Assembly: GCA_005191425.1 (NCBI GenBank)
Contig: SUPR01000030.1
Location: 1 to 32,000 of the forward strand
Reading direction: 5' to 3'
Source of the DNA: Candidatus Helarchaeota ASGARD archaeon Hel_GB_B
GTDB lineage: Archaea; Asgardarchaeota; Lokiarchaeia; Helarchaeales; HEL-GB-B
Length of the DNA: 32,000 nt
Made by a program: the position numbers and the translations under genes. Each line of letters begins with the position of its first letter. Within the stretch, counting starts at the first letter, position 1. Of this stretch, positions 1 to 23,700 are shown piece by piece. Under the pieces are notes generated by a model. It worked only from the letters and a program-made list of their open reading frames with translations, made no database searches and was not told where the DNA came from.

Positions 1-313
1 TTAGATAATTTTATGAAATATTTCTTATTTAAATGTTTCCGTTAATATTATAAGACTTTTTTCCCAACAAAATTTAATTTTTTAATGAATATTTTATTTT
101 CAATTTTTTTAAATATTTTAACTTAATTTAATTATTAATATCGTTATTTCATTTTTAAATCTCCAAATTATCTACTATCTAAATATTATCCCAATACTAT
201 TTATATATGCAAATTAACTAAAAATCATGTTTTATTTTTTTATTAGAAAAATTTTTGAAAATATTTCTTTTTATATTTAGTAATTTTTTTCTTTAATGAA
301 TTAGGTGCCTTTT

Positions 314-1618
314 ATGAAGGAAAGAATATATACAAATGAAGCCATTAATTTTAAAGATGGTTCAACAGTAAAATTGCTTGGATGGATACATACTATCCGA
401 GAACTTGGCAAAATCATTTTCTGGCAACTCCGCGATGCTAAAGGTATCGTCCAAATCGTTATTATCAACCCTAAAAAAAGAGATGATATTGAATTAATTA
501 AAAAAATAAAAAATGAATTCGTCGTCGAAATCATTGGGACTATTTCTCACAATGAAAAAGCTCCAAATGGCGTTGAAATTTTACTTGAGTCCGTCAATAT
601 TATCGCGCCTGCAGTTAGTCCCTTACCATTTAGCGTCGATGATAAAACTCCAGCTAATTTCGATACCCGCCTAAAATACCGATATCTCGATATTAGAAGA
701 CTTAAAGTCCACGCTATTTTTAAAGTCAGGGGCGCTGTCATCGAAGGGGCCCGTGAATATTTTAAATCCAATGATTTCACTGAAATCCATACCCCAAAAA
801 TTATTTCGGTCGGCGCTGAAGGCGGTACTACTTTATTCCCCGTCTACTATTTCGGAAAAGAAGTTTATCTCGCTCAAAGTCCTCAATTCTATAAACAACT
901 CGCTATCCTGGGTTTTGAAAAAGTCTTTGAAATTGCACCATTCTTCAGAGCAGAAAAGTCCCGGACCAGAAGACACCTGGCTGAATCCTGGGGAATTGAT
1001 GTCGAAGTCGCCTTCGCTAATGAACAAGACCTGATGGACATTCAAGAAGACCTCCTAATTTCTATCTTTAAATACGTCAAAAAATCGTGCCCCAATGAAT
1101 TAAAATTGTATAATATTGACTTGAATATCCCCAAAAAACCATTCCCAAGGATCACTTTCCATGAAGCAGCAAAAATCGCCCTCGAACATGGAATTAAAGT
1201 AGACCTAAATTCTGACCTATCTGCTGAAGCCGAAGCAATCGTCAGGTCTAAATTTGACTCACCATTCTTTATTACTGAATTTCCTCTTAGTTGCATCGCC
1301 TTTTATTACGGACCTCATGAAAAAGACCCCTCTCTTTCCTATAAACTTGACCTCTTGTTCCCAGGTAAAAATGGACTCGAATTGAGCTCTGGAGGACGTA
1401 GGTGCACTGACCCAAATGTCTTGATCGAGCGAGCTAAAAAAGCCGGCATTAATCCCGATTCACTTGGCTGGTACCTTGAAATGTTTAAAGTCGGTGGAAT
1501 ACCACCTCACTCAGGCTTCGGTATGGGCATCGATAGACTCGTTATGATGATCCTGAGACTCCCTAATGTCCAAGAAGCTGTCCTATGCCCAAGGACTATA
1601 GATATACTTAGCCCATAA
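314..1618 (+). CDS. aspS: Archaeal-type aspartyl-tRNA synthetase, probably non-discriminating (Asp/Asn)
   Basis: N-terminal OB fold (GWIHTIRELG), LAQSPQFYKQ with the Asp-specifying Lys, motif 2 FRAEKSRTRRHLAE, motif 3 PPHSGFGMGIDRL. His in WIH and Pro in KAP match the non-discriminating signature. The ORF track starts at GTG 305; ATG 314 is preferred. Confidence 0.92.
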   Translation: MKERIYTNEAINFKDGSTVKLLGWIHTIRELGKIIFWQLRDAKGIVQIVIINPKKRDDIELIKKIKNEFVVEIIGTISHNEKAPNGVEILLESVNIIAPAVSPLPFSVDDKTPANFDTRLKYRYLDIRRLKVHAIFKVRGAVIEGAREYFKSNDFTEIHTPKIISVGAEGGTTLFPVYYFGKEVYLAQSPQFYKQLAILGFEKVFEIAPFFRAEKSRTRRHLAESWGIDVEVAFANEQDLMDIQEDLLISIFKYVKKSCPNELKLYNIDLNIPKKPFPRITFHEAAKIALEHGIKVDLNSDLSAEAEAIVRSKFDSPFFITEFPLSCIAFYYGPHEKDPSLSYKLDLLFPGKNGLELSSGGRRCTDPNVLIERAKKAGINPDSLGWYLEMFKVGGIPPHSGFGMGIDRLVMMILRLPNVQEAVLCPRTIDILSP

Positions 1619-2698
1619 TCATTTCACTTGATAAAAACTCTTTATTATCTATATTTAATCCTAAAAAATATTCTAAACAAAATTTAATAACCACTAAATT
1701 CCCCCGCATATCCTCTTTAATAAAATCCCTAATATAAACATCTGAAACGATCCCCCATATAAAATCTTTTTGTGTTTTAATTTTTTCAGGGTTCTACAAT
1801 CCACCGCTAATATAAAATGGTAATTTTCAAATAAAACGGTATAAATTAAATTCTTTATAAGTAATCGTAGATTTAAACATAAAATAAGAAGATCTTATAA
1901 AAATTATGGAGCAATTCATTGCCTTTTTAAGTATTTTCTTTACCAATTCCAGAAATTCTCACCTTGTTAAATAAAAGTTTAAAATTAATTTCTAAAAAGA
2001 CTCTGCTCTATTACCACCAAAATTGAGCAACATTTTGAGTGTACTAAATTTTTATTTAACAATATTAGATGTCATTTATTTATTTTCAAATACTATGAAA
2101 ATAATTTCCAGTATTTCACTAATATAATAATTATTATTCTTAATTGGATTGATTTAATTGAATTTTCTATGGCGTAGTTACATTTTTTTTATTTTTACAT
2201 TTTTGGACTCTCCTGTAATATTAAAGTTCATGATTTTATCAAACCTTACATCAATACATTTTTGTCCTGGTCTATGATTAATATAACATAAAAAATTGTC
2301 CCGCCAATTCTACTAAGAGTTTCATTTTTAAAAACAATATTACTGCTCCTTTTAGATGCCCATACCTACCTTTTCCACGCAAAATTATAAATATGTACTA
2401 TTATTTATTTAAATAAAGTATGTCCAGACGGACTACTGCAATTAAGCATTAATAATATGTTTTTCAAACCAATTCTACTATTTTTAAATAATTTTAAAAG
2501 GAACTGGGCCATTTTATCGATAATTTTTTGAAATATATGACTGATACCTATTTAAAATTAAGTATTCTGACCTTTTATAATAAACTTGTGATTAGACCAA
2601 TAAGAATCAGAATTCTTAAAGTATGTTTATAATAATCAAGGAATATGTAAAGAGAAATTAGTTTAAATTTATTAAAATTTAATAAAAAAGCGAATATT

Positions 2699-3685
2699 AT
2701 GAAAAACGATTACGATCTTTTTGTTGAGAAAAGACATTTGATTGATTATATATATCTTTTAAGAGCCTTAAAGTTATCTAAACCAGGTATTATTAAATTA
2801 TTTAAAGATCCGAAAATTACAATTTCCCATTTTAAAGATTTTGAACGAGATAAAATTGTTAAATATCTTTCAACAAAGAAAAACTATTTTAAAAATTATG
2901 AAAAAATAGAAAAATTATTTACTTTAGAATATTGCAACGAAAATTATAAAAGAATTGAAGACATGGTGAATTTTTGTGAATTGAATGATATAAAAATATA
3001 CAAAGCTTATGATAATAAAATTCCAAAAATATTTAAAAATTTAAGTGTTAATAATAGGGATTTAATTTTTATAAAAGGTAGTATTTTGGATTTAGATTTA
3101 AAGTCATATTCTATATGTGGAAGTAGAACTCCGACCCCTATTGCTCTTCAAAAGACTCGCAAAATTGCTCGATATTTGTCTTCTAATAATTTTACCTTAA
3201 TCAATGGATTCGCTAGGGGTATTGATATTGAAGCTTTTAAAGGGACTGCCGATGTAAATGGTAGATATATAGCTATTTTAGCTTCAGGTATTGAGAATAT
3301 TTATCCTCCTGAACATAAAAAATTTGTAAAATATATTGTAAATAATGGTGCATTGGTCTCTCAAAGATTAATCTGGAAGCAGGTAAATAAATTATCATTA
3401 CAAATTCGCAATAGATTATCCGCTAAACTTTCTCTTGGTACTATTTTCATCGAAGGTAATTATAAATCTGGTACAAAATGGCAGCTAAAGTTTGCTAAAG
3501 AAGCAGATAAACCAATATTTTATCTTGAACCTGAAAATTGGGACAATCCAAATTCTCATATACTTAATATCGTAAAAAATGAGGGTGGACATAAAATTAA
3601 TAAGGATTTATCTAATTTAGATGAAATTAAATCTATACTCGAGAAAAAATATCTCGATACTAATATTCATAGGAGAAATAAATAA
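2699..3685 (+). CDS. dprA: DprA/SMF (SLOG family) DNA-processing protein
   Basis: Motifs SICGSRTPT, INGFARGID, AILASGIENIYPPEH, RNRLSAKLS, IEGNYKSGT; about 100 aa Lys-rich N-terminal extension. Confidence 0.88.
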   Translation: MKNDYDLFVEKRHLIDYIYLLRALKLSKPGIIKLFKDPKITISHFKDFERDKIVKYLSTKKNYFKNYEKIEKLFTLEYCNENYKRIEDMVNFCELNDIKIYKAYDNKIPKIFKNLSVNNRDLIFIKGSILDLDLKSYSICGSRTPTPIALQKTRKIARYLSSNNFTLINGFARGIDIEAFKGTADVNGRYIAILASGIENIYPPEHKKFVKYIVNNGALVSQRLIWKQVNKLSLQIRNRLSAKLSLGTIFIEGNYKSGTKWQLKFAKEADKPIFYLEPENWDNPNSHILNIVKNEGGHKINKDLSNLDEIKSILEKKYLDTNIHRRNK

Positions 3686-3914
3686 AATTGGGTAAAAGTT
3701 CATGGAAATAAAATGAAATATCCACTCAATTCTACGTCATTTCGTCCTTGATATAAGTTTTTAATAAAAACATCTCAAATATGCTCTATGTAATATTTTT
3801 TTTAGAAACTTATTTTCTCTAAATTTTAGAAAATTAATTGAAATTTGTTTATCTATAATTTCTTTAGTAAAATTATTATATTTTTTTCAAATTTATTTTA
3901 TTCAGGTTTTAATT

Positions 3915-4880
3915 ATGACATACTTAATTTTTAACGGTGTTATTTTTCTTATTATAGGGATTTTTTTAATAATACTATCAAGCAATTTAGCCGTGGTGCA
4001 TTCAATAAAACTTTCTAGTGCTTTAGGAATATCTTCATTGATAGTTGGTATAGTTTTTGTAGGTATCGGGACCAATATGCCCGAAATTCTTAACTCAATC
4101 ATTTCATGTGCGTTAGGTCATGGAGATATCGATGCAGGAGATTCTATTGGGTCTGTACTAGCTCAACTAACCCTTGTTTTTGGTTTAATCCCTATCATTG
4201 GTCGCCGATTTTTTAAGATCGATAAAAAAGAAATCTTAATTATAGGTAGCTGCGTTATCCTTGCTCTTTTTCTTGTATATGCTGTAGTTGAAAAAGGCTT
4301 TTTTACCAGACTTGATGCCTTATTCTTAATTTTAAGTACACCCATCTACATGCTTATTACCAAATTGTTTTCAAGTAAAGGAACTTTGGACGACATTAAA
4401 AAAGAAACAATCGAAATTAAATATAAAGACAAAAAATCCAAAAAATTTCACTTATTTATCGCTATTTTAGGCTTTATAGGTGTTGGTGGAGGGTCTTATA
4501 TTATCATTAATTCAATTATCGAATTGTCATCCGTTCTTAATATCTACGAATATAATATCTCATTCTATATCGCTGCTATTGGGACCTCGCTTCCTGAATT
4601 ATCTGTCGATATTACCGCAATTCGTAAAAAAGAATATAAATTATTAATAGGAGACATTTTCGGAAGCTGTATTATTGACGCCAGCCTGTCAATTAGTATA
4701 GGCCAATTCTTTTTCCCACAATCTGTATCAGCTGACCTCGCTTCCACTACCATTATTTTTACTTTAATTGCATCTTCTTTGGTCATTTTTTTGCTCGTGA
4801 TCAGAGGTAAAGTTGATAGAAAATCCGGAATTATCTTTATAATTATTTATTTCTTTTCCTATTTGTTATTTTTTATTTAA
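3915..4880 (+). CDS. Sodium/calcium exchanger family antiporter (CaCA, YrbG-like)
   Basis: Two alpha-repeats GIGTNMPE and AIGTSLPE, GDSIGS / GDIFGS, about 10 hydrophobic segments. Confidence 0.9.
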   Translation: MTYLIFNGVIFLIIGIFLIILSSNLAVVHSIKLSSALGISSLIVGIVFVGIGTNMPEILNSIISCALGHGDIDAGDSIGSVLAQLTLVFGLIPIIGRRFFKIDKKEILIIGSCVILALFLVYAVVEKGFFTRLDALFLILSTPIYMLITKLFSSKGTLDDIKKETIEIKYKDKKSKKFHLFIAILGFIGVGGGSYIIINSIIELSSVLNIYEYNISFYIAAIGTSLPELSVDITAIRKKEYKLLIGDIFGSCIIDASLSISIGQFFFPQSVSADLASTTIIFTLIASSLVIFLLVIRGKVDRKSGIIFIIIYFFSYLLFFI

Positions 4881-5040
4881 TTTTTTATTTAATTTATAAT
4901 TTCAATAGAGTTTTAATGAAATGAATTTATTTTTTATTTTCCATCAATAAAATTACACACCCCCTCTTATTTAAATTTGTTAACCTTTTTTTTGTTGTAA
5001 TTTTGTTAAAAAAAAAATAGCTGATAGATATGAATTAAAG

Positions 5041-5339
5041 ATAGGACATGTTAAATTAGCCATTAAATATTATTCTTTAGAGATATTGGAGTTTATAAAA
5101 AAATAGGAGCAACCCCGCTGTTGATATTAATCCAATGAGTTCAAGTATTGTTAAAGCAATATAAGAATACATTAGAATATTTCAAGCATTATTATCATGG
5201 ATTTATAAAATTAGGGCTAAAATTTTCAGATTTAACAAAGATGTGGTATTATCATTCCTTAGAAGATGTTGACAACACTCTAAAAAAATTGGAAAAGAAA
5301 ATAAACGTTAAGAAATCTTTTTTAATTTCATTTTTCTAA
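5041..5339 (+). pseudogene. Possible decayed TPR-repeat gene remnant
   Basis: Stop-interrupted frames read IGHVKLAIKYYSLEILE and YKNTLEYFKHYYHGFIKLG, resembling TPR helices. No proper start codon. Confidence 0.25.
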
Positions 5340-5598
5340 AAGGATACAAATTTATTTATATATTAATTAGAGATAAGAATTTAAAAAAATTTGAAAATTT
5401 GGAAGATTTGTCTTTAATGTGAAAAATTTAATTTTTTAATTCAATGATTAAGCTAATTAACTCAAGTTTTTATTTAAAAAATAAAAAAAATACATATTAA
5501 ATGTATATTTATATAAATGATTAAATATTGACGTCCTTAACTTTTTGTTTATTTTATTCAACTTTATTTTGGTTTATTCTTTTTTCTCTAATTCTTAC

Positions 5599-7323
5599 TT
5601 ACTTTTTCTTTTTTCCATATTTAAAATATAATACCAATCCTACTGCAGCCGCTGATATTACAATAATTAAAATATATATCCACGTCGTTGATATTGTTTG
5701 TAATGATGCTGATTGTAAATCTACTTTTACATAATTTGTATAATTAACGTTTCCCGCCGAGTCGACCAGCCAAATGTATATAGTATGATTTCCGCTATCG
5801 AGCATATTAACTATAATTTGACTGATATTTACTCCTGCAACGTAGGTACCGTCTTTATTTGAACTTGGTGGAGAATCTACCTTATAATACACTCCTATTA
5901 TCCCTGATAAATCATTTGGGTTAGTCCAACTTATTACGAACGAATTCATATACGAAACAACTTGATTTACCTTTACGTCCGTTATCTTTCCTATGGATAT
6001 ATCTTTATAAAAATTCCATGACGGAGCTGACCCATTATTTATATTATTTAAATCGTCCCAGGCTTTGAAATATATTACGTGTAATCCTTCGGTCAATGAA
6101 TTCCAAATAGAACTCGATACCTTAAAGTTTGTGGTAACTTTATTTCCTGGATTGTCTGTGAATATTGCAGTCCAGCCAGTCGTATTAAAACCTGATGGTG
6201 TATATGAATCTATTTTATAATAAGCGTCGTCTAGTGAAAAAGAATCCGTAAAATTTACCTGGACCGTGGGCGGAGAATTGTAATAATTGCCATTCGTTAT
6301 ATTGAACGAAATAGACGGACTCGTTGTATCTATCTTAATAATTGAAGTATTACCTTGAATACCCAAGTTACCGTTAAGATTTTTTGCTCTAAATCTTATA
6401 GTATTAAATACGTCAGAGTCTTGCCCAAAAGGCACCGCATTTACTTTTGCATATAGCCACCCAGTATCTCCATTTTCTGCCAAGTTAGTACACAGTGGGT
6501 CTTCATAGACGCCATCTACTTGAGCCCAATTGTTAGGACTCACTGAACCAGTTGTCGAATAAGCGTATTGAACCGAGGAGATATTGATACCATCTTTTTC
6601 AAGACAAAATTTTGCGACGACTGTTGGAGTCTGATTTTTAGACCACCCAATTGGAGTATAAATTGAAAAAGAATCTAATTTACTATACATAACCAGAAAC
6701 GCGTCATTATTGCCTGCTCCAAAACTATAAGTTTCTCCATTAATATACACGTTATTATCCCCGTCCACTGCTACACCACAACCATCATCTTTAGCCGAAC
6801 CGCCCCAAGTTAAGTTCCACAACTGGACACCGTTTGGATTATATTTCGCCAATAATGCATCACCTCCACCACCCGCCGTATATCCATTAATATACACGTT
6901 GTTCTCCCCGTCCACCGCCACATCATAACCATAATCGCTAGACGCACCGCCCCACGTCACGTTCCATAACCGAAGTCCACTTGGATCATACTTTACCAGA
7001 AACGCGTCATCACTGCCCGCTCCAAAACTATAAGTCTCTCCACTAATATACACGTTGTTCTCACCGTCCACCACCACTCCATAACCATTATCGATAGACC
7101 AACCGCCCCACGTTGTATTATATTCCTTTAAATATAAATTATTGTCTTCTAACGTTGATAACTTAATTTTCCCATCTTTATAACTGTGACTATCATTTGG
7201 ATTATTATTGGACACTCCAGCACTCATTAAAGATTGATCATTGAAATATAGTATTGAATAGGTCGATAACATAAGTAAGATTGTAAATGCAAATATTAAA
7301 ACCTTTAAATTTTTAATTTTCAT
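5599..7323 (-). CDS. Secreted, C-terminally anchored surface protein with three SBBP-type beta-propeller repeats and Ig-like domains
   Basis: N-terminal basic plus hydrophobic signal (KIKNLKVLIFAFTILLML), three repeats of WGG..D.G..V.VDG.NNVYI.G.T...DA.L..Y, Ig-like DTTSP linkers, C-terminal TM helix followed by KYGKKKK. The ORF track starts at GTG 7332; ATG 7323 is preferred. Confidence 0.8.
   Translation of the reverse strand: MKIKNLKVLIFAFTILLMLSTYSILYFNDQSLMSAGVSNNNPNDSHSYKDGKIKLSTLEDNNLYLKEYNTTWGGWSIDNGYGVVVDGENNVYISGETYSFGAGSDDAFLVKYDPSGLRLWNVTWGGASSDYGYDVAVDGENNVYINGYTAGGGGDALLAKYNPNGVQLWNLTWGGSAKDDGCGVAVDGDNNVYINGETYSFGAGNNDAFLVMYSKLDSFSIYTPIGWSKNQTPTVVAKFCLEKDGINISSVQYAYSTTGSVSPNNWAQVDGVYEDPLCTNLAENGDTGWLYAKVNAVPFGQDSDVFNTIRFRAKNLNGNLGIQGNTSIIKIDTTSPSISFNITNGNYYNSPPTVQVNFTDSFSLDDAYYKIDSYTPSGFNTTGWTAIFTDNPGNKVTTNFKVSSSIWNSLTEGLHVIYFKAWDDLNNINNGSAPSWNFYKDISIGKITDVKVNQVVSYMNSFVISWTNPNDLSGIIGVYYKVDSPPSSNKDGTYVAGVNISQIIVNMLDSGNHTIYIWLVDSAGNVNYTNYVKVDLQSASLQTISTTWIYILIIVISAAAVGLVLYFKYGKKKK
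6690..7112. repeat. Intragenic tandem repeats encoding three propeller blades
   Basis: Near-identical DNA blocks recur: ACCAGAAACGCGTCAT (about 6692 and 6995), CCAAAACTATAAGT and TAATATACACGTT. Confidence 0.85.
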
Positions 7324-7983
7324 TCTTCTCACTTTACATATTATTCCTTTATTTTATATTATATTTTATATTATAATTTACCAATTTTTATATAAAAGTA
7401 CTTTCACAAATCCTATTTAATTTTTTGATTTAAATAACCATTCGATGAAATAAAGTTCTTATTTTCATTTTTTAAACCTCTTATACTTCTATTATATTAC
7501 TTCTATTTATTTCCTCTTTATATGATATTGAATGCTTTTGTAAATTCCAATACTTTTTTTGTCACAGATTCTTTTCTTTTAATTTTTTCAACTCTTTCTT
7601 TTTTTCACCTCCTTTCTATTTAGTTTAATACTAACCAACATCGACCTTCTTACCATTATCTTCCCCAATTTCCCCCTTTTTTTATCTCCTTTACAAACCC
7701 CAAAAATTCTCTTATCGCTAAATAAAAATTTAAAGTTAATTTCCAGTGAAAAAAAAGTATCCAGATGTTAAAAAATCTCTTCTACTTTTATCAAACAATT
7801 TTCTATAATAACTTCAAAAAAAGAAAAAAACGTCATTTTTTATGATATTTAATCCATCTTGTTCCATTTGTCCGATTTCTAATTGATAATAAAAACTTTT
7901 TAATAAATTTATAATGAATACCCAAATTAACCATAGAAATTTTTGAAATATTTGATGGTTTCCTTATTATTTCCCATTTTTTA

Positions 7984-9420
7984 CTATTTAACTTTAAATC
8001 CATATTTTTTTAATGAATTTTTCATGTCATTTTTAAAGGATTCAGGGGTACCTTCTAAAAATGCTCCTACCATATCTATACCCTCTACAATATCCGAATT
8101 TCTTGACTTTGCCTTCTGTTCTGCCATTGTCCCAATAGCTATTTTTGCAATTTGCCTAAAATGCTCCGGCGTTTCTAATATAATCTTGTCGAATATTTCT
8201 TTTATCCTTGGTTCCCATCTCATCCCTTCAGATTTCTCACTTTTTTTAATTTCCTCTTTCGGTTCAATCCCAAACTCTCGTCCTGTGGTTAAGTCTTTTA
8301 GATATGTTTTTAATATTGCTACATATGATTTAACTCTCTCTTCATCTCTTATTATTGCTTTCTGCGCCCATTTAGAACAATAATCACATTCATCACACAT
8401 CGCATTACAGTTCTGATTCTTGAAAAATTCAATAAACCCATCTAACTTTGTATTATCAATTATAATTTTTGATTTTTGTTCTAAATCCAAGCATTTCCTC
8501 ATCCCTTCAATTGGATCCTTCTGATATGTCCCTTCCGCTGAAATAGAAATAGCCTGTATAATATCAATTAAATTTCCTTTATACTCCCGATTTGAATACG
8601 CATTAACTGACCTAATTATCCAATTCGTTGGCATTCTACGCCCTGCTATCTTAAAATTTTTTATCCCTATTCTCTCATAATGCACCAAATCTTCAGGCCT
8701 TATCCACCTACATTTTATTAACTCCACTGGATCTGAATATTTTATAATACTACAATTTAATATACACGTATCTATATACTTACCTTTCATTGGGTGGTCA
8801 GTTTGCGAAGAATGCCCCATAAGGTTATAATGATAAAGCCGAAATGGACACTGAAATAAACACCCATCCGTTAATAGTAAATTTAACTCACAATTGTATT
8901 TTCTAAGCGCTTTTTGCATCTTCTCTAAAGTCTTAAAATCCCTATTTATCATAGCATCCGGTGTTATCTCTGATGCTCCTAACTCAGCATAAAATTTTGC
9001 CCGATTGACCGAATTCACCGTTGCAATTGTCGATACCCTTATTTTTAATTCTGGAAATTGCTCATGTATTATTTGTATCAAAAATGGTATCGTCACTATT
9101 ACATAATCTGATCCTATATTAACTATCCACTCGAGATACTCTATTATCTTTCTATAATACCCCTTGTCATATTCTATATTTCCTAAACATGGCGCATTTA
9201 ATAAATAAGCAAATTTCATCCTATTTTTGTGTACTTCCTTTATGTATTCAGTAATTTCCTCCTCTGAAACCTCGGGTAATAAAAATGACGGCCTACCTCC
9301 ACCTATCGGCGTATTTGGCGCACTACCATACAAGTCTCTAACCGGATATTTTATTATTTTCTCAATAAGTTCTGGATCCCAATTTGTCGCTACAGTAAAT
9401 CGTGCCATATATATCTCCAT
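7984..9420 (-). CDS. Peptidase U32 family protein (probable Fe-S enzyme) with a C-terminal PCP_red-like helical domain
   Basis: AYLLNAPCLGN, RVSTIATVNS, GCLFQCPFRLYHYN..CILNC, WIRPEDL..Y...GIKNFKIAGR, extra CNAMCDECDYC, tail WEPRIKEIFDKIILETPEHFRQIAK. Alternative start ATG 9408 has GGAG upstream. Confidence 0.82.
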   Translation of the reverse strand: MEIYMARFTVATNWDPELIEKIIKYPVRDLYGSAPNTPIGGGRPSFLLPEVSEEEITEYIKEVHKNRMKFAYLLNAPCLGNIEYDKGYYRKIIEYLEWIVNIGSDYVIVTIPFLIQIIHEQFPELKIRVSTIATVNSVNRAKFYAELGASEITPDAMINRDFKTLEKMQKALRKYNCELNLLLTDGCLFQCPFRLYHYNLMGHSSQTDHPMKGKYIDTCILNCSIIKYSDPVELIKCRWIRPEDLVHYERIGIKNFKIAGRRMPTNWIIRSVNAYSNREYKGNLIDIIQAISISAEGTYQKDPIEGMRKCLDLEQKSKIIIDNTKLDGFIEFFKNQNCNAMCDECDYCSKWAQKAIIRDEERVKSYVAILKTYLKDLTTGREFGIEPKEEIKKSEKSEGMRWEPRIKEIFDKIILETPEHFRQIAKIAIGTMAEQKAKSRNSDIVEGIDMVGAFLEGTPESFKNDMKNSLKKYGFKVK

Positions 9421-9986
9421 TAATCTTTTTTCATTTTTTTATTTTCTAACAAATTATTTTTGACTATTCTATAGCCTTTTTGGCTACTTTTTTATTATAT
9501 CTATTCAATATTCTTATTTTTTTAACCATTTATATGGTGCCCTACTCATTTATCTCGCTATTTAAAGATTTTTTAATGTAAAAATTAATATGAAATCTAA
9601 AATCTATTTTCTCATCTGCTCAATTTATCTTTATAAAAATAACTCAGGATTTCTTTTCATTATAGCTATAAATGCCCTTAATTACCTATTTAGACCTATT
9701 ATTTTATTTTTTTATTATTTTTCGCAACATCTTGCTCAATGTCCCTTCTATACCTCACTTATTTTTACTAATATTTGTAAAATCTTCCTTAATTTTATCT
9801 CACTGAAAATGAAATAAAATTATTTATATATTGTTAAAATACAAGACATTTTGAAAAAACTCGATTAACATTGAGACATATTATGTCTGGTGCTAATTGA
9901 TATCTATTTATCCCAGCAAGATATCTCCTCTCATTTATTTAAACTTTACGTATTTAGGTATCTATATAAATTAGGGTGCTAAATCC

Positions 9987-10412
9987 ATGGAAAGCGAGAT
10001 TGGGGAAAGTATTCCCAAAAAACCCGGGAAAATTAAAAGATTTGGCAGATTTCTGTCCAAAGTTGGCAAAAAAGTACTCCCTGCAGTCGCCGATATTGCT
10101 ACAGGTGTATTTATTGGCCCCGCAGTCGCCCCTATCACTCAATTTATTGCCTCCAAATTGACCAACTATGGTATTTCAATTGATGAAGCAGAATTAACAA
10201 CACTCCCAGAATCCTTTAGTAATTTAAAATCACTTCAAACTCTAAATTTAAGATATAATAGATTAGATACTCTCCCGGAATCGTTATGCAATTTACCAAA
10301 CCTTAAAGAAATAATGATTACCAAAAATATGTTAGGAACTCAAGCAAATTCTATTATCAAAAAATGCAAAAAGAAGGGTATTAAAATCAATGATCCAGAC
10401 GAAAGATATTAA
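9987..10412 (+). CDS. Short leucine-rich-repeat protein with a cationic amphipathic N-terminal helix
   Basis: LTTLPESFSNLKSLQTLNLRYNRLDTLPESLCNLPNLKEI matches the LRR consensus LxxLxLxxN; N-terminus KRFGRFLSKVGKKVLPAVADIA. Confidence 0.8.
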   Translation: MESEIGESIPKKPGKIKRFGRFLSKVGKKVLPAVADIATGVFIGPAVAPITQFIASKLTNYGISIDEAELTTLPESFSNLKSLQTLNLRYNRLDTLPESLCNLPNLKEIMITKNMLGTQANSIIKKCKKKGIKINDPDERY

Positions 10413-10579
10413 TTTTTATGTCTTTTATTAAAAAAATTTAATATTTGTTTTCTTTTCCTGTAAAATTTAATATCATCCCAAAATTTAATCTTTAATAAAC
10501 TTCATAATTCTTTTAGATTTATGCCTAAATTTTCTTAAATAAAAAAATAAATATTGAATTTTATTCTATCTTCTTAAAT

Positions 10580-11029
10580 TCAATCTCTCGCTGCTGACGC
10601 CTGTAAAATTCCGCCAAATAACCCTGCTATAAATATTACTACAGATATTGAATGCACTATTCCTCCTGAAGCATATACAGGCAGCCCATTATAAATTGCC
10701 ATTACATTTACAAATATATCAAATGTAAGAAATAAGATTGCACCTATTAATACTGAATATCCGCCCTTCCAAAAACCTATGATTGCTCCTATTGTCAATA
10801 AAATTGAACTTATTATCCAAATTATTATTCCTGCTAACCAGCAATATGCAAATAGTGAGTAAGTTGACATATATCCAATTACTTCAGTCCACCTTGTAAA
10901 ATAGTATCCCAATAAATAGTGTGATGATGGGACCCCAACAAAACTTGGAGAAACTAAACCAGTTACTACCGCTAAAATGCCCGCAAATATAGCTACAAAA
11001 CCGCCAAATACAGTCCTAAATCCGCCCAT
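10580..11029 (-). CDS. Hypothetical membrane protein (about 4 TM)
   Basis: 149 aa ORF with four long Gly-rich hydrophobic stretches. Confidence 0.7.
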   Translation of the reverse strand: MGGFRTVFGGFVAIFAGILAVVTGLVSPSFVGVPSSHYLLGYYFTRWTEVIGYMSTYSLFAYCWLAGIIIWIISSILLTIGAIIGFWKGGYSVLIGAILFLTFDIFVNVMAIYNGLPVYASGGIVHSISVVIFIAGLFGGILQASAARD

Positions 11030-11536
11030 TAGCTTATACCTTCTAATTTATTTTTTAATTTAAATTTCTGTTTTTTCTTTTTTGTTTTCTATTTCTAAAT
11101 TTTTTATTTTTTGACTTAATTTTTATAATTTTTATTGTTAGTATTTAGATAGAATTTTTTAATAAAAAGTTTCCGAATTAATGCTCCCATTACATTCCAA
11201 TATCCTAATTAAGAAATTAAATAAGTTTCAGGTGATTTTTTAGATATTAGCATATTTTCTAATTATTCATTACTTTTTTGCGTATATTGAAATTGGTATA
11301 TTATTTATATTCCATAACTCATTTACAATTAGAAATTCCCTTAAATTTCGTCCTTATATGGAAATTTTGTCTAAATTTTTGCTGCTAAAAAAGCGTAAAG
11401 TGCCAATAAAAAGATTCAATTTTAAGACTTCAGGACACTATAAATTTCAATATAAAGATAAGAAATAGAAGAAAATATGAGAAATAAATAGAGTTTTACC
11501 TATCAATTGATTTTACTGTACTTGGTTCTTTAAAGG

Positions 11537-11968
11537 TCATAGAAAATTCAAAATTTCTATTATTTCATCTTTAAACCGGTCTTTCATTTGATTTATCCTT
11601 AAAATGAAGTTTTCAATTATTTTAATTTGTTTTTGAATTTCTTTATTTTTTTTGTTATTTTCTATTTTCTCAATTAAATCTTTAAAATTATCGTTTATTT
11701 TGTTCACAGGGCAGATATATTTTTTTCTTAGTTTTCCATCACTCCAAAAATAGTGGTAATAATAGGGGCCATGTAATGATACACCATTATTACACCTGCA
11801 ACCTTTTTTTCCGCATTTTACATATTCGTAAATAAGAATACCAGATTCGCTGTCCTTAATTTGCAACATTAAATTTTTCCGTTTTTGAGTTAAGTCATCT
11901 AGTTTTTCATTTAATTTATTCAATAAATTGATTAAGTCCTCATCCCTTAATACTGTTTTTGATAACAT
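11537..11968 (-). CDS. DUF6788-like Zn-binding protein flanked by coiled coils
   Basis: Motif YVKCGKKGCRCNNGVSLHGPYYY..W.DGKLRKKYI matches the CGK..C.C...HGPY signature of DUF6788. Confidence 0.72.
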   Translation of the reverse strand: MLSKTVLRDEDLINLLNKLNEKLDDLTQKRKNLMLQIKDSESGILIYEYVKCGKKGCRCNNGVSLHGPYYYHYFWSDGKLRKKYICPVNKINDNFKDLIEKIENNKKNKEIQKQIKIIENFILRINQMKDRFKDEIIEILNFL

Positions 11969-12175
11969 TTTCTAATTATCACTTATAAAGTTTATTAATA
12001 AATAATAATAAATAAATTAATACTTTACATAAGATATTAATCATTTAAAAATTATTCGGTATTTAAAAACCCTTATATACATATTACATAGATTGTTTAT
12101 AAACCCATGGTTTATTTATAAACTATTTTTAAATATATATAAATCTCATACTTATATATTAAATATTGTGTAGTT

Positions 12176-12197
12176 CCCTCCTATATTTCCACTCCAA
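12176..12197 (-). promoter_or_regulatory. Degenerate ORB-like element
   Basis: Minus strand TTGGAGTGGAAATATAGGAGGG has the GTGGAAAT core and a G-rich tail but lacks the TCC part. Confidence 0.35.
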
Positions 12198-12353
12198 GTA
12201 TTATACTGAACCTGAAGTATCTTTTATCTAAATAATTTTAATATTATATTTAACTTATTAGACAAATTGATATTTAAATTACTTATTTAATTTACCTATT
12301 GAAATATAATTTTTTAATATAAAAAAAAATAAAGCATTATAATTTTTTGAAAT

Positions 12354-12374
12354 CTCCAGAGGAAATTAAGGGGT
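12354..12374 (+). promoter_or_regulatory. Origin recognition box (ORB) with G-string
   Basis: CTCCAGAGGAAATTAAGGGGT matches the archaeal Orc1/Cdc6 ORB pattern TCCA.nGGAAA...GGGG. Confidence 0.7.
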
Positions 12375-12418
12375 AAGGGAATTATTAGACAAATAAAACA
12401 TAGGCAAAAAAAGAATAA

Positions 12419-12441
12419 ACTCCCTAATTTCCATTGGAAAC
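12419..12441 (-). promoter_or_regulatory. Inverted origin recognition box (ORB) with G-string
   Basis: Minus strand GTTTCCAATGGAAATTAGGGAGT faces the first ORB across a 44-bp A-rich spacer. Confidence 0.65.
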
Positions 12442-12912
12442 ATTTTTGAAAAAATAAAAAAATAAAAAACTAAACCCAAATTTGAAGAAAAAATAAAGAA
12501 AAAAATGCATTCATAATGTAAAAAAAGATAGATAAATAGTCAAATCTTCCGAATTATAATGCAATAAAATAAAAATCAATCGTAAATAGGAAGTAATCTT
12601 GTGTAATATTATCAACTTTTCATTATTGACTTTACATAAGATAATAAGTGATTAATTTTTTTTTACGATAAAGATGACCTGGTATTATTTTAGACATAAA
12701 ATAATAATTAATTTAGAAAAAAAATCAGATAAAGTCAGGAAGATAAAAAAAAGAGTTAGATATGGAAAAAGGTCTTTCTATCATTACCTAGTAAAATGAA
12801 AATCTGTTATAAAAAGGATTAGATCTTATGTAATATAACAATTTTCACATTGCCAACTTTACATAAGAAAATGGGTTTATTTTTAGCATTTCATAATAAG
12901 AGATACCTGGAA

Positions 12913-13710
12913 CTATTTTGAGCTAAAAAATTTAATGGGTTCATTAGAAGGGACAAAAATGGATTTAATTTCAGGGATTTCAATTTGGAGGTCATGAGTT
13001 ACGAATTGTTCAAGGATAATATTAAGCCAATTATAAGGTAAAATGCAGATATTAATGTTGTAATCTTCTGCGAATCGGGCTTTAAAAAAGTCAATAGAGG
13101 AGCAGATGAGGGTATTGATATCTTGGTAGTAGCATTGAGCGATGAAATTTTCGGTAGGGGGGTCTTCAAGGTAGACCAAGATTTTATCGACAGGGAAGTT
13201 AATATTGTTATAGGGGGACACGTAGTTAATATATTTGAGGTTAAATTTAGTCTGGATGATATCGAGTAGTTGATTAAAATTCAGGTTATTTTGGTGGGGT
13301 TCAAAGATACGTCCTGAATCTTGGTTGTTAAAGTGGAAGACATTGACCATTTCAAGGTTAAGAATAGAGCCGATGCGTTCATGGATACCATAAGGTACAG
13401 AGAAAAAATCTTTAGGAATTTCTAGAATAACGACTTTTTTATCACGAAGGAATTTTAATTTTTGGTAGAGGTCATCAATTATATTAGGGCGAGACCAGGT
13501 ATGGAATAATAATAACAGGTCAGCTTTTTCTTCGATGAGAGTAGAGATAGCATTATAATTAAAATCAGGGGAAACGATACATTTGTTAATAGAGAATTTT
13601 TTAAGGTCATTAAGGTGAGTGGAACCAAATTTAATAATAGATTGGGGGTTTAATTCAATTATTTGGAGAATTTTTTTAAGTTTAGAGATGAACTCAGCTA
13701 AATTAATCAT
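12913..13710 (-). CDS. NIF3-like (YbgI/Nif3 fold) protein, metal ligands largely lost
   Basis: KCIVSPDFNYNAISTLIEEKADLLLLFHT aligns with the Nif3 N-terminal pattern (V..D....I..A....ADLL..HH). The length and C-terminal layout fit, but the HH, HTxLD and GH..SE motifs are degenerate. Confidence 0.6.
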   Translation of the reverse strand: MINLAEFISKLKKILQIIELNPQSIIKFGSTHLNDLKKFSINKCIVSPDFNYNAISTLIEEKADLLLLFHTWSRPNIIDDLYQKLKFLRDKKVVILEIPKDFFSVPYGIHERIGSILNLEMVNVFHFNNQDSGRIFEPHQNNLNFNQLLDIIQTKFNLKYINYVSPYNNINFPVDKILVYLEDPPTENFIAQCYYQDINTLICSSIDFFKARFAEDYNINICILPYNWLNIILEQFVTHDLQIEIPEIKSIFVPSNEPIKFFSSK

Positions 13711-20717: not shown

Positions 20718-23700
20718 CTAATCTTCAATAATTTTGTAATAACCTTCTTTTGGTTGATAAAGTACGCCATGCATTCTAAGAGTATTTAATTCTGATTCGA
20801 CTTGTTCTTCCGAAATTCTAAGCCTACTGGCAGCTTCTTTAATCTCTTCAATCGAAACAGCTTGACCACCTTTTCTTTCTGTTAATTCTCGAATTAATTG
20901 ATTAATTTGGTCTAAACGTCTTCTATGAGTAGTAGTGATACCCGTTTCTATTGCATCGATATCTGAGACACCAGTCTCCTGGTCAATCCCAACCTGTCCT
21001 AAAGAATAAGTCATTAATTGGATCACTGATTGAGCATCTTCAGCAGTTACTTCTTCATGTAATAAAACTTTAGCTCTTGCTTCAGCAAGTCGTATTAATG
21101 CCTCTAAATATCGAGCTGTAATCGGAATTGGTGTCTCTGGATCTGCGCCCGCAATTCGAGTTTGTAAATAAAACTGTTTAATTACTTCTATTGCTTCTTT
21201 GGTTATTCGAGGTTTACAATTTTTCTTAGCATAATAGATATAATTTTTTAAAAGTTCATGATCAATTGGTGGTTCTTGGGGTGTTTCTTCAGAACTTAAT
21301 ATAAAATTTGCCATTCGTTCATCATTTGTAGGACTTGGTTGGTCCCTAATTAAAAATATTAAATCAAATCTCGATAAAATAGTCGGCGGTAATTTCTTAA
21401 TATTCTCCGCAACTGTTTTATATGGGTCATATCTACCTTGAAATGGGTTGGCTGCAGCTAGAATTGACGTCCTTGAATTTAACGTAGCTATTATTCCTGC
21501 TTTTGCTATACTGACCGTATTGTGCAATATGACACCGTGGCTAACAAAATTATGATTTGGTTCAATAGTTATATCATATACCCAAGGAGTAAAATATTCT
21601 TCTTCATTTTTAATTTTCTGAATATCAACAATTTTCAGAAATTTTATGTCTGATTTTATTAACTTTTGGACTGACTTTACTGAACCAATGGTTTTTTCGA
21701 TTTTTTTAATTAAAATATCGATGTTGTCCTTATTTAAACAATTGTCATTATTTTGGTTAATATTCTCAATTAATTCCGAATTTGGGATTAAGTTATTAAC
21801 TATTAATGAAATTTCTGGTTTCAAATTTAAATATGAACTGGATGAATAAGGTGTATTCAAAAGTTTTTTGAGTTTTTGCTGGATTTTGTAGAGTTTATTA
21901 ACTGCCTCGTTTAATAATTTTAGAGCTAGCTCTTTTGTCATTTTAGGCTTGTTTATACCAGTAAATTTAGATAGTGTAGATGAATTTGAACAGATTTTTT
22001 CAGTAATTTTTGTGATTAAATTTTCAATAGGGACGGGAATTGTATCATATTTAAATTGGTCATAGAAAATATCTTTTAAAGCTGGAGTTTGAGGCTCTTT
22101 CTGGTCGAACTGAAGAAATATTTCCTGGACAAATTTTTGAAGTGAGCATGGCGATATAAACAGTTTATGTCTTCTGTTCTCAAATTTGATATAGCTTGAA
22201 ATACCTAATTTTAATAATAAATCTTGCAAATCTTCGCAAATTACTTTTTTCTGACACACAAAGTATATTTTTTGCTCAAAAATTTCTCCAATAGTCCTAA
22301 AAGTAGCGGTTAAAAAAGATTTGGCTATTTCTTTACTTGCACCCAGTATTTTTGATGGGACACGTTTATTATTATTATCCATTAATTCAGGAAAATTTAT
22401 TTTGAACCAGTAATAGAGGTCATAAGAGTCATAATAGACTACTGTATAGTCAATCAGATTTAATTTCTGAATTGGTATTATTCCAAATAAATCATTTAAA
22501 AGCCGGGCGACCTCATTTATTATATTTTTAGATAAATTTGAAAACTGAATTTGAGTTGAAATATCTGAATTTAAATTACCAGAAGTGAAAAAATGTCCAA
22601 CAAGTTCAGCTACCTCTAATGTTAGGAGATTTGGCTCTTTTTTTACCTGTAATTTAGTTATAAAATTATGGTCTAACGCAATTGGTTTCGTAGAATTAGG
22701 TAAATAACGAGGGGCTGGTATATAATCACCTATTGAGCAATTTTCTGCTTTAACACAGTCTATATTGAGTCCATTTAATTTAAATACAGGGTGTTCTGGA
22801 GTAACAATTATTGACCTACCATTTGAAAATTCTATCTTGTAAAAATTGCTTGGAGCTATATGTCGGCTTAATCTATTTATCCTACTTTTATAAATTTGTT
22901 CAAAATCTGTAGTATATAGTCCTATATCTTGAAATGGAAGTATTTCACAATTAATACCTTTGACCACTTCTTTTGGACGCGATTCAATTGCGTCATCAAT
23001 GAATTCGCCAATTTTAATTTTTCTTCCGTCAATAAGTAAAATTTCAGTATTTGGGTGGAAACATAGTTGTTCCATGGACTCATGAATAGAAATACGATCT
23101 TCGGGCCTCATTTTATCAAATTCATCAATGGCAGCCAGACCTTGATCTGCTAATACGAGTACTCCTGCTTCAAGTGAGAGATTTCCTGTATCTTTATCTC
23201 TTAATACGCTCGCGGTTAAGCCAGCCGCACTTGTACCTTTACCACTTGTATATATCCCTCTTGGTGCTATTAATGCTGCACTTTTTAGGATTTGACTATT
23301 ATGGAAAATTACATGACCATTGGCAAGGATAAAATGGTTATTCTCAGTCCCTATATCATATACATATTCAAACTCATTTTCTAATTTAGTTATTGAAATA
23401 ATTTTGTCCCAAAAAACATTTTTGTTTATTGAAGTTCCTAAAATCTTGGCATCTTGATACTTTTTATTTAAGTTATGAGTACATCTCTTTAAAGCCAGGA
23501 TTGTTCCTAGACATTCGGATAATACTTTTTGATTATTAAAATCAAGTAATTTAGGTTGAATAAATCTTTGAGGGATGGTACCTAAAGAAATACCCGTTCT
23601 ATTTATTTCCGTGTCTAATAGATTAAGCTTATTATAAGAATAGACATGGTGTTCCCGCTTTACTCTCAAATATAAATTTTTTTGTTCTTTATTATTTATA

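What the first reader, a model, noticed from the sequence alone, without database searches (positions are those of the whole stretch)
12150..12460. Candidate chromosomal replication origin with no adjacent orc1/cdc6
Two ORBs (12354-12374 plus strand, 12441-12419 minus strand) share TCCA..GGAAATTA.GGG and point their G-strings inward across a 44-bp A-rich spacer. This is the established layout of archaeal Orc1/Cdc6 origins. A third degenerate box lies at 12197-12176. Strand composition flips at about 12.3 kb: to the left the plus strand is C/T-rich (aspS codons end in C; minus-strand U32 codons end in G/A); to the right it is G/A-rich (minus-strand Nif3-like codons end in C). That polarity is what an origin produces. 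Most characterised archaeal origins sit next to their initiator gene, but none is present in these 32 kb. mcm and gins23 lie 8-17 kb away. The skew was judged by eye from sampled lines.
Basis: partly seen in the sequence, partly recalled or inferred. Interest (0 to 1): 0.75.

Follow-up and report, generated by a model that had tools for sequence, protein, structure and literature searches.

The report
Likely Asgard chromosome replication origin
A 945-base gene-free stretch in this Asgard archaeon carries the classic archaeal origin-recognition boxes around a very AT-rich core, exactly where the strand composition flips, so it is very probably a chromosomal replication origin. As in most Asgard genomes sampled here, it does not sit next to its initiator gene.

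Summary
ORB1 (12354-12374, +), ORB2 (12441-12419, -) and the degenerate ORB3 (12197-12174, -) exist as described. ORB1 is the best match in the whole 3.54-Mb MAG to the published pan-archaeal ORB motif (18/20).

The largest GC-skew up-jump in the assembly falls at 12250. The flip also shows at third codon positions of genes on both strands and in intergenic DNA.

Independent support:
- The ORBs are kept in a same-genus genome and carry no SNPs in strain variants.
- Relatives of the same order have the same architecture.
- An Orc1-1-type initiator is encoded on another contig (C114).

Two corrections:
- The canonical core is ORB3(-)/156-bp 12.8%-GC spacer/ORB1(+), with G-strings pointing outward. 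Outward pairs outnumber inward ones 37 to 2 in 120 public archaeal ORB loci. The 44-bp ORB1/ORB2 pair is the unusual one.
- The skew is local. It decays and reverses within about 20 kb, and eight weaker ORB-less up-jumps exist elsewhere.

The missing neighbour gene fits a pattern. Only 1 of 18 Asgard ORB-pair loci has orc1 within 1.5 kb, against 19 of 35 in other archaea.

Verdict: a probable Orc1-1/ORB origin (about 0.7) and a new member of a known kind. No binding or firing was shown. The same stretch was flagged independently in an overlapping window of this scan.

The parts
11969..12912 (.). Gene-free intergenic region (944 bp, 20% GC) that holds the whole candidate origin
   Evidence: ORF list: only low-complexity ORFs of 41 aa or fewer. 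No Rfam family or tRNA. Only 2.9% of intergenic gaps in the MAG are this long; the median is 122 bp.
12174..12197 (-). ORB3: degenerate origin recognition box, the left arm of the outward (canonical) pair
   Evidence: 15/20 to the Common motif and PWM score 14.3. Its dyad half faces the AT-rich spacer. The equivalent box in same-genus G001 is better, about 17/20 by my hand count of the letters. No strain SNP inside 12175-12200.
12198..12353 (.). Candidate duplex-unwinding element: 156 bp at 12.8% GC (core 12225-12345 at 9.1% GC)
   Evidence: Among the 2-3 least stable 100-150-bp windows of the contig. Flanked by inverted ORBs with G-strings distal, as in 37 of 39 inverted pairs in other archaea. 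The dyad-to-dyad distance is 159 bp here and 155-177 bp in G001, G002, G005 and G006.
12354..12374 (+). ORB1: best ORB of the genome, the right arm of the canonical pair
   Evidence: 18/20 to the Ori-Finder 2 Common motif and the only hit of 18/20 or better in 3.54 Mb. With the 15 bp to its left, it is the best-conserved non-coding block against same-genus G001, apart from the promoter block. No strain SNP.
12375..12418 (.). 44-bp A-rich spacer between ORB1 and ORB2 (22.7% GC)
   Evidence: Holds the second copy of the 13-nt repeat TTATTAGACAAAT. No strain SNP.
12419..12441 (-). ORB2: outer box facing ORB1 (the inward pair)
   Evidence: 16/20 to the Common motif and PWM score 29.3. An outer inward-facing ORB also occurs in G001 (about 270 bp away) and on both sides in G005 (about 216-220 bp away).
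12255..12267 (+). 13-nt exact direct repeat TTATTAGACAAAT, copy 1 (inside the AT-rich core); copy 2 is at 12382-12394
   Evidence: the repeat finder family D4. The ATTAGAC..AAT core is kept in G001. Function unknown.
12025..12868 (.). Second repeat family TTACA(T/C)AAGA: half-sites at 12025-12034(+), 12597-12606(-), 12632-12641(+), 12824-12833(-) and 12859-12868(+). Four of them form two 47-bp arm-spacer-arm units.
   Evidence: TTACATAAGA occurs 11 times in the MAG and 4 of these are here, plus one variant. The 12-mer CTTTACATAAGA occurs 3 times in the MAG, all here. The motif is kept upstream of the DUF6788 gene in G001.
1..12197 (.). Left arm of the strand-asymmetry domain: the plus strand is C- and T-rich in genes of both orientations and in spacers
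   Evidence: The residual neutral-site skew is -0.12 to -0.44 out to the contig end.
12442..25760 (.). Right arm of the domain: the plus strand is G- and A-rich, fading with distance and reversed beyond about 26 kb
   Evidence: One search gives a slope of -0.044 per kb, r=-0.89, p=2e-7 over 19 genes.
11537..11968 (-). Left neighbour gene, DUF6788 family, transcribed away from the origin
   Evidence: Pfam PF20586, E=2.4e-14. The neighbour is kept in same-genus G001 but not at the ORB clusters of G003 or G005.
12913..13710 (-). Right neighbour gene, weak NIF3/DUF34 match, with its 3' end facing the origin. Its coding strand is strongly C-rich at third positions.
   Evidence: Pfam E=1.6e-4, below the curated cut-off. 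Plus-sense GC3 skew is +0.77.
20718..25760 (-). MCM helicase gene interrupted by inteins, 8.3 kb from the ORBs
   Evidence: Pfam domains MCM, MCM_OB, MCM_lid, Intein_splicing and LAGLIDADG_3.
28756..29313 (+). GINS23-like gene, 16.3 kb from the ORBs
   Evidence: Weak Pfam matches to PSF2_N, Sld5 and Gins51_C.

Best explanation
This is a chromosomal replication origin of the conserved archaeal oriC1 type.

Shown here:
- Two origin recognition boxes in inverted orientation, ORB3(-) and ORB1(+), flank a 156-bp stretch of 12.8% GC.
- A third box, ORB2(-), lies 44 bp outside ORB1.
- The genome encodes an Orc1-1-type initiator on contig C114.

Inferred by analogy with Sulfolobus oriC1:
- Monomers of that Orc1-1 bind each box with a fixed polarity.
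- They recruit the MCM helicase, encoded 8 kb away, onto the AT-rich stretch.
- The stretch melts and two forks leave in opposite directions.

The strand-composition switch exactly at the boxes is read as the mutational trace of those diverging forks: the leading strand is G- and A-rich on both sides.

The initiator gene is not a neighbour of the origin. In my sample this is the usual state in Asgard archaea.

The TTACATAAGA repeats and the 13-nt repeat may bind accessory factors, as the ucm/UBP pair does in Sulfolobus. This is speculative.
For: (1) ORB1 is the best match of the whole MAG to a motif published independently of this window (18/20). ORB2 (16/20) lies 44 bp away, with P about 1e-3 for the pair. 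This is the only ORB+GGG cluster in the genome.

(2) That motif is archaeal and origin-linked. An exact-match scan of 185,579 species genomes returned 119 archaeal rows out of 120. Of the 35 non-Asgard loci with an outward pair, 19 have an orc1-like gene within 1.5 kb.

(3) The architecture is canonical. The outward pair flanks a low-GC spacer, as in 37 of 39 inverted pairs elsewhere. It matches the ORB3-DUE-ORB2 core of Sulfolobus oriC1, where both boxes are essential in vivo (PMC12141716).

(4) Conservation. Same-genus G001 keeps ORB3, ORB1 and ORB2 while the rest of the spacer has diverged. G002, G005 and G006 of the same order have outward pairs 169-177 bp apart. A strict outward-pair pattern occurs exactly once per genome in 17 other genomes of the phylum, against one hit for the reversed control.

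(5) Strain variants in three other metagenomes carry 18-21 SNPs across the intergenic region. None falls in 12333-12496 or inside ORB3. Their contigs bridge the switch, so it is not an assembly join.

(6) Skew. The largest raw GC-skew up-jump of the assembly is at 12250. It is seen in genes on both strands and in spacers, with leading-strand-G polarity. The ORB pair on G006:C3 shows the same flip.

(7) The cognate-type initiator exists. The Orc1 on C114 matches the ORB-bound crystal-structure proteins 2QBY_A (354 bits) and 2V1U_A (331 bits). In G005 and G006 its ortholog lies 14 kb and 8 kb from the ORB cluster. G005:C6 also carries homologs of genes from C108 and C114 within 100 kb.

(8) The contig is chromosomal: it carries aspS, MCM and GINS.
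Against: No experiment and no marker-frequency data were available; the public runs are held only as contigs.

The skew is local. It fades by about +12 kb and is reversed from about +14 to +24 kb. The genome shows no replichore-scale strand-independent skew.

Eight other abrupt up-jumps lack ORBs. The skew signal is therefore not specific to ORB sites, and its cause is not established.

The four-ORB cluster of G005 shows no skew jump, and G003 shows none either.

ORB3 alone is not significant (15/20).

The MAG is 93.7% complete in 182 contigs. Other ORB clusters, or an orc1-linked origin, could lie in unassembled DNA.
Confidence: 0.7

Rival explanations
1. The boxes are genuine Orc1 binding sites, but the locus does not fire. 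It would be either a dormant or relic origin, or an Orc1-dependent regulatory site, for example for the divergent DUF6788 gene. The active origin(s) would lie elsewhere.
For: Archaeal genomes often hold more ORB clusters than active origins. In Haloarcula hispanica only five of eight predicted origins support replication, and a downstream ORB cluster acts as a negative regulator (PMC4010727). No initiator gene is adjacent. The G005 and G003 ORB clusters show no skew.
Against: This is the only ORB cluster in 93.7% of the genome, and no ORBs flank any of the orc1 genes. It has the full outward-pair-plus-AT-rich-core architecture at a conserved 155-177-bp spacing. The strongest skew switch of the assembly is centred on it. 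The boxes lie about 390 bp from the only promoter in the spacer.
Confidence: 0.15
2. The composition switch is not a replication trace. It could be an inversion or translocation breakpoint, or the product of strong divergent transcription. The ORB-like boxes would then lie there by coincidence or mark some other boundary.
For: The pattern along the contig is minus, then plus, then minus (0-12 kb, 12.5-25 kb, 26-36.6 kb). An inversion inside one replichore would give exactly this. Gene order against G005 is heavily rearranged, with single genes flipped in place. Most genes on either side point away from the switch. Eight other up-jumps have no ORB.
Against: There is no background replichore skew for an inversion to disturb: opposite-strand neighbours correlate at r=0.03. 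Genes pointing towards the switch (aspS, the LRR gene, the NIF3-like gene) carry the same plus-strand bias, which transcription does not explain. Abrupt jumps above 0.5 are all upward, 9 against 0; random inversions would give both signs. The chance that the best ORB pair falls within about 1.5 kb of one of 9 such sites in about 3 Mb is about 0.005. The G006:C3 ORB pair flips as well.
Confidence: 0.08
3. The boxes are chance matches, or a small mobile or palindromic element, in AT-rich spacer DNA.
For: ORB1 alone (18/20) is expected about 0.4 times per genome by chance, and hits of 16/20 occur at the Markov expectation.
Against: The pair P is about 1e-3. The full pattern occurs only here. The boxes are conserved in G001 and across the order at syntenic or architecture-matched sites. 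They are SNP-free in strain variants. They coincide with the top skew jump. No other copies of the arms exist, as a mobile element would leave.
Confidence: 0.02

Closest known systems
Sulfolobus/Saccharolobus oriC1 (ORB3-DUE-ORB2 core bound by Orc1-1; Robinson et al. 2004; Samson et al. 2013, PMC3607249; Dhanaraju et al. 2025, PMC12141716)
   Same: Both have ORBs of the pan-archaeal consensus and two boxes in inverted orientation flanking a highly AT-rich stretch. The core is 130 bp there and 156 bp between the boxes here. Both have a third ORB nearby and an initiator of the same Orc1-1 clade (2QBY_A, 354 bits). Both have extra short repeated motifs in or beside the core: ucm there, TTACATAAGA and TTATTAGACAAAT here.
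   Different: The orc1-1 gene is immediately adjacent there and is absent from this 36.6-kb contig. The extra ORB here faces ORB1 at 44 bp (inward). No UBP/ucm homology is shown. Nothing here has been tested in vivo or in vitro.
Predicted ORB origins of Methanomassiliicoccales and the 'Archaea consensus ORB' (Borrel et al. 2014, PMC4153887; Ori-Finder 2, PMC4164010)
   Same: The box sequences are nearly the same (GTTCCAGTGGAAATGG-AGGGGT there). Inverted pairs are spaced 39-256 bp. Both are predictions from sequence alone.
   Different: Those pairs lie directly up- or downstream of orc1/cdc6.1. Here, and in 17 of 18 Asgard loci sampled, no orc1 lies within 1.5 kb.
Skew N-domains at eukaryotic replication origins (Touchon et al. 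2005; Huvet et al. 2007; cited from my own knowledge, not read here)
   Same: Both show an abrupt upward jump of strand asymmetry at the origin, followed by a roughly linear decline to negative values (r=-0.89 over 22 kb). Genome-wide, abrupt jumps are only upward (9 against 0).
   Different: The scale is tens of kb rather than about a megabase. Most of this genome is flat. The other jump sites are weak, carry no ORB, and are unverified as origins.

Membership tests
Archaeal Orc1/Cdc6-ORB origin (oriC1 type) | Repeated boxes matching the ORB consensus (TCCA-N-T-G/T-GAAA-Y-R-AA-GGGGT) | tested here: met
   ORB1 scores 18/20 (best in the genome), ORB2 16/20 and ORB3 15/20 against the published Common motif.
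Archaeal Orc1/Cdc6-ORB origin (oriC1 type) | [quoted passage not shown] | tested here: met
   ORB3(-), a 156-bp spacer at 12.8% GC, then ORB1(+). This orientation is the same as in 37 of 39 inverted pairs in public archaeal ORB loci.
Archaeal Orc1/Cdc6-ORB origin (oriC1 type) | Located directly adjacent to an orc1/cdc6 gene. Reviews list this as typical (PMC4010727, PMC3528665), but it is not mechanistically required. | tested here: not met
   No Orc1 match on contig C108. The neighbours are DUF6788 and NIF3-like genes. The same holds in 17 of 18 Asgard loci, against 19 of 35 adjacent in other archaea.
Archaeal Orc1/Cdc6-ORB origin (oriC1 type) | Genome encodes an Orc1-1-clade initiator able to read ORBs | tested here: met
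   C114:23277-24389 scores 402.6 bits to TIGR02928. It matches 2QBY_A at E=9e-105 and 2V1U_A at E=9e-98.
Archaeal Orc1/Cdc6-ORB origin (oriC1 type) | Strand-composition (skew) switch with leading-strand polarity at the site | tested here: met
   The top raw GC-skew up-jump of the assembly is at 12250. It is strand-independent. However, it is local rather than replichore-wide.
Archaeal Orc1/Cdc6-ORB origin (oriC1 type) | Specific Orc1 binding to the boxes | not testable with these tools
   Needs EMSA, footprinting or ChIP with the C114 protein.
Archaeal Orc1/Cdc6-ORB origin (oriC1 type) | Replication initiates here in vivo (marker frequency, 2D gels, initiation-point mapping) | not testable with these tools
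   All 17 public runs listed for the stretch are stored as contigs without usable depth.

The most novel reading that the evidence does not exclude
This Asgard archaeon replicates from several fixed initiation sites with dispersed termination, rather than from one bacterial-style origin.

Its genome shows only abrupt upward jumps of strand asymmetry: 9 loci above 0.5 against 0 downward. Each jump is followed by a gradual decline. This is the sawtooth signature known from eukaryotic origins.

Only the strongest of these sites, the one in this window, is specified by canonical ORBs. The others would use other Orc1 paralogs or no fixed sequence.

Together with the phylum-wide separation of origin and initiator gene, this would place a eukaryote-like replication programme inside Asgard archaea.
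Probability: 0.12. Interest if true: 0.85.

Novelty: new member of a known kind. Interest (0 to 1): 0.55.

Why it matters
Asgard archaea are the closest known prokaryotic relatives of eukaryotes. Their replication proteins have been surveyed in detail (PMC12680538), but none of the reviews or genome papers I could search describes where their chromosomes start replicating.

This locus gives a concrete, testable origin:
- three defined boxes;
- a defined unwinding stretch;
- a named candidate initiator (the Orc1-1 on C114);
- a helicase gene 8 kb away.

The same architecture recurs once per genome across the phylum.

Two side results could matter more than the origin itself.

First, origin and initiator gene are usually unlinked in Asgard genomes, unlike in most other archaea.

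Second, the strand asymmetry around the origin is local and sawtooth-shaped. This bears on how many origins these organisms use and how forks terminate.

Tried and rejected
- Whole-contig cumulative skew as a stand-alone test. The contig is only 36.6 kb, and raw skew partly follows gene orientation. I replaced it with GC3, intergenic and genome-wide jump scans.
- Marker frequency from reads. All runs holding the stretch are Logan contigs, so depth is one figure per contig and gives no verdict.
- ORBs next to the genome's own orc1 genes (C114, C182, C151, C131, C147). None were found.
- Replichore-scale skew in the near-complete relative G005. The 314-kb contig C6 rises steadily, but this is entirely gene-orientation bias. 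There is no strand-independent GC3 component and no jump at its four-ORB cluster.
- Local synteny of the ORB clusters among G000, G003 and G005. There is none; only neighbourhood-scale (100-kb) sharing.
- Joining C108 to C114 through shared contig ends. There is no overlap.
- A shared motif at the eight other skew jumps. No ORB and no shared 9-mer were found.
- Fetching Sulfolobus oriC1 with the published ucm oligo, to read box polarity directly. There were 0 exact hits. I replaced this with the 120-locus orientation survey.
- Hidden genes or RNAs in the spacer. No Rfam family, no tRNA and no credible small ORF. The bacterial-type promoter and terminator scan was uninformative.
- One Pfam call failed on a coordinate slip and was not repeated, as it was not needed.
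Full report
**What the window is.** The window is the first 32 kb of a 36.6-kb contig (C108). The contig belongs to a 3.54-Mb, 182-contig, 28%-GC MAG that is 93.7% complete. Pfam finds eukaryote-signature domains on the contig: EAP30/Vps36, Longin and Roadblock/LC7. It also finds aspS, a DprA-like gene, an intein-containing MCM and a GINS23-like gene. This is therefore chromosomal DNA of an Asgard archaeon. Near-identical DNA occurs in marine-sediment and hydrothermal-vent metagenomes.

**Observation.** To avoid circularity I scored them with a motif published from other archaea. This is the Ori-Finder 2 'Common' ORB, TCCA[CG]T[TG]GAAA[TC][GA]AAGGGGT (PMC4164010). It is close to the 'Archaea consensus ORB' quoted in PMC4153887.
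- ORB1 scores 18/20. It is the single best hit in the MAG, where about 0.4 such hits are expected.
- ORB2 scores 16/20 and is one of 22 such hits.
- A second hit within 100 bp of the best one has P of about 1e-3.
- ORB3 scores 15/20 and is not significant alone.
- No other ORB+GGG pair lies within 400 bp anywhere in the MAG. None of the five orc1/cdc6-like genes (C114, C182, C151, C131, C147) has ORBs beside it.

**The motif really marks archaeal origins.** The 120 rows returned were 119 archaeal and one Chloroflexia MAG. They span Euryarchaeota, Thaumarchaeota, DPANN and Asgard. Thirty-seven of those loci carry an outward ORB pair. Among the 35 non-Asgard ones, 19 have an orc1-like gene within 1.5 kb.

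**Layout.** In those 120 loci, adjacent inverted ORB pairs are almost always 'outward'. A minus-strand box comes first, then a low-GC spacer, then a plus-strand box, with the G-strings distal. The count is 37 outward against 2 inward.

The canonical core here is ORB3(-) 12174-12197, then 156 bp at 12.8% GC (core 9.1%), then ORB1(+) 12354-12374. That spacer is among the least stable stretches of the contig. This mirrors the ORB3-DUE-ORB2 core of Sulfolobus oriC1, where both boxes are individually essential (PMC12141716).

ORB2 is an extra box facing ORB1 across 44 bp. An outer inward-facing box recurs in this lineage. G001 has one about 270 bp out, and G005 has one on both sides, about 216-220 bp out. 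This looks like a lineage habit rather than an accident.

**Conservation.**
- Same-genus G001 (contig C320) keeps the DUF6788 neighbour gene and all three boxes. ORB1 with the 15 bp to its left is the best-conserved non-coding block apart from the promoter block.
- Same-order genomes carry the same box sequence, and the reversed control pattern is almost absent. Outward pairs sit 169-177 bp apart, dyad to dyad, in G002:C64, G005:C6 and G006:C1.
- A strict outward-pair pattern of 18 fixed bases with a 140-170-bp gap occurs exactly once per genome in 17 other genomes of 399 in the phylum. The reversed control hits one genome. Sixteen of the 18 fetched loci (these 17 genomes plus the G005 locus) have clearly low-GC spacers.
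- Contigs from three other metagenomes are about 98% identical strain variants. They carry 18-21 SNPs across the spacer, but none in 12333-12496 (ORB1, the 44-bp spacer, ORB2) and none inside ORB3. They also bridge the locus, which excludes a chimeric join.

**Skew.** A scan of 7,858 positions with +-5-kb windows puts the largest GC-skew up-jump of the assembly at C108:12250. Its size is 0.57 (4.4 SD), and the next is 0.43. Part of this is divergent gene orientation, but a strand-independent part is plain.
- Plus-sense GC3 skew on the left is -0.54 and -0.50 for plus-strand genes and -0.70 for a minus-strand gene.
- On the right it is +0.77 for the minus-strand NIF3-like gene and +0.33 to +0.46 for plus-strand genes.
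- Spacers flip too. G/C counts are 33/109 at 7.3-8.0 kb and 121/50 at 13.7-14.4 kb, and A/T flips in the same sense.

The polarity is that of a G- and A-rich leading strand. The ORB pair on G006:C3 shows the same flip. The four-ORB cluster of G005 and the G003 clusters do not.

**What does not fit a simple single-origin picture.**
- The asymmetry is local. Right of the boxes it falls roughly linearly, with slope -0.044 per kb, r=-0.89 and p=2e-7. It reaches -0.54 by 35 kb.
- Genome-wide there is no strand-independent skew. Opposite-strand neighbour genes correlate at r=0.03.
- In a signal built from corrected GC3 plus intergenic bases, abrupt jumps above 0.5 are all upward: 9 loci against 0. 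An up-jump keeps its sign under reverse complementation, so this is a real polarity.
- The eight other sites are weak dipoles of about +-0.2-0.3 within +-6 kb. They lack ORBs and share no 9-mer.

Possible readings are several origins with dispersed termination, a gradient of single-strand exposure near origins, or rearranged remnants. I could not decide between them. Other first-stage readers independently noted such flips on other pieces of this genome.

**Initiator.** The C114 protein (433 aa) scores 402.6 bits to TIGR02928. It matches the two ORB-bound crystal-structure proteins, S. solfataricus Orc1-1 (2QBY_A, 354 bits) and A. pernix ORC1 (2V1U_A, 331 bits). The right kind of reader is therefore encoded, but not here.

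In G005 its ortholog lies 14 kb from the ORB cluster and a second paralog lies 25 kb away on the other side. In G006 the ortholog is 8 kb from ORBs on the same contig. The first 110 kb of G005:C6 also holds homologs of genes from C108 (MCM and others), C114, C182 and C166. The origin, orc1-1 and mcm thus share a neighbourhood that has been shuffled.

Across the phylum, only 1 of 18 outward-pair loci has an orc1-like gene within 1.5 kb. The Thorarchaeota and Hodarchaeaceae loci from the public scan have none either. In other archaea the figure is 19 of 35. Fisher P is about 3e-4 to 7e-4, not corrected for relatedness, and the flanks were limited to 1.5 kb.

**Other elements in the spacer.**
- TTACATAAGA occurs 11 times in the MAG, 4 of them here plus one variant. 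The 12-mer CTTTACATAAGA occurs only here, 3 of 3. Four half-sites form two 47-bp arm-spacer-arm units at 12596-12642 and 12823-12869.
- A 13-nt exact repeat sits once in the AT-rich core and once in the 44-bp spacer.
- There is no Rfam family, no tRNA and no credible small ORF.

These repeats may be accessory-factor sites, by analogy with the Sulfolobus ucm. No homology with the ucm is shown.

**Literature.** Reviews of archaeal origins describe ORBs flanking an AT-rich element next to the initiator gene as the norm (PMC4010727, PMC3528665). Asgard-focused reviews, the 2025 Asgard replisome study and the circularised-genome papers describe no chromosomal ORB origin. One paper only picks a skew minimum to set base 1. 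Within the searchable library this is therefore undescribed. I cannot exclude subscription papers.

**Verdict.** This is a probable (about 0.7) Orc1-1/ORB replication origin. It is a new member of a well-known kind, sits in a lineage where origins have not been described, and has an unlinked initiator gene. No binding or initiation has been shown. The local sawtooth skew and the extra up-jumps are unexplained and are the most interesting loose end.

Noticed in passing
G000 contigs C127:~13.5k, C95:~31k, C115:~7k, C93:~21k, C99:~12k, C105:~5-6k, C9:~4k, C131:~4k: There are eight further abrupt upward jumps of strand-independent G/C asymmetry with origin polarity, but no downward jump of similar size (9 against 0 above 0.5). 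None has an ORB, and several lie between convergent genes. Contigs C134, C117, C16, C1 and the end of C122 carry strong one-sided asymmetry up to their ends.
   Followed up: partly
window 12025-12868: A locus-specific repeat, TTACATAAGA, has 5 half-sites here out of 18 loose matches in the genome. Four of them form two 47-bp arm-25 nt-arm units right of the ORBs. One half-site sits in the conserved promoter block of the DUF6788 gene.
   Followed up: partly
Asgard phylum sample, loci L163-L180, L074, L091: Canonical outward ORB pairs occur once per genome in 17 other Asgard genomes. Only one locus (G044:C1) has an orc1-like gene within 1.5 kb, whereas about half of such loci in other archaea do. 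In the large sister family (f4) the 3' part of the box reads GGAGT rather than GGGGT. Many of those spacers also hold a conserved GGnCCCCAnT-like element.
   Followed up: partly
L016 (G003:C23) 10047-10105 and 10209-13712: In a same-order genome, two tandem ORBs lie directly upstream of the small subunit of DNA polymerase D (DNA_pol_E_B domain), followed by an RPA/SSB-like gene. This recalls the Pyrococcus origin neighbourhood, but without cdc6.
   Followed up: no
G000:C108 30222-36608 versus G005:C6 94586-101686: Seven homologous genes keep their order between the two genomes, but three of them are individually flipped. In G000 all of them lie on the plus strand.
   Followed up: no
window 20718-25760: The MCM gene encodes 1,680 aa because inteins interrupt it (two Intein_splicing stretches and one LAGLIDADG domain). 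The G005 ortholog region is much shorter.
   Followed up: no
G000:C131:10609-11592: An Orc1/Cdc6-like reading frame (208 bits to TIGR02928) is interrupted by 8 stop codons. It is probably a decayed paralog, and it lies 6.6 kb from one of the minor skew jumps.
   Followed up: no
window 12674-12799 (+): A 41-aa, very basic ORF lies between the two 47-bp repeat units. It is probably spurious but was not tested.
   Followed up: no
G000:C95 ~31083-31313 (L040 7083-7313): 69-nt tandem repeats (23-aa units, LRR-like) lie in a minus-strand gene at the C95 skew jump. Repeat-rich genes with odd composition may contribute to that jump.
   Followed up: no
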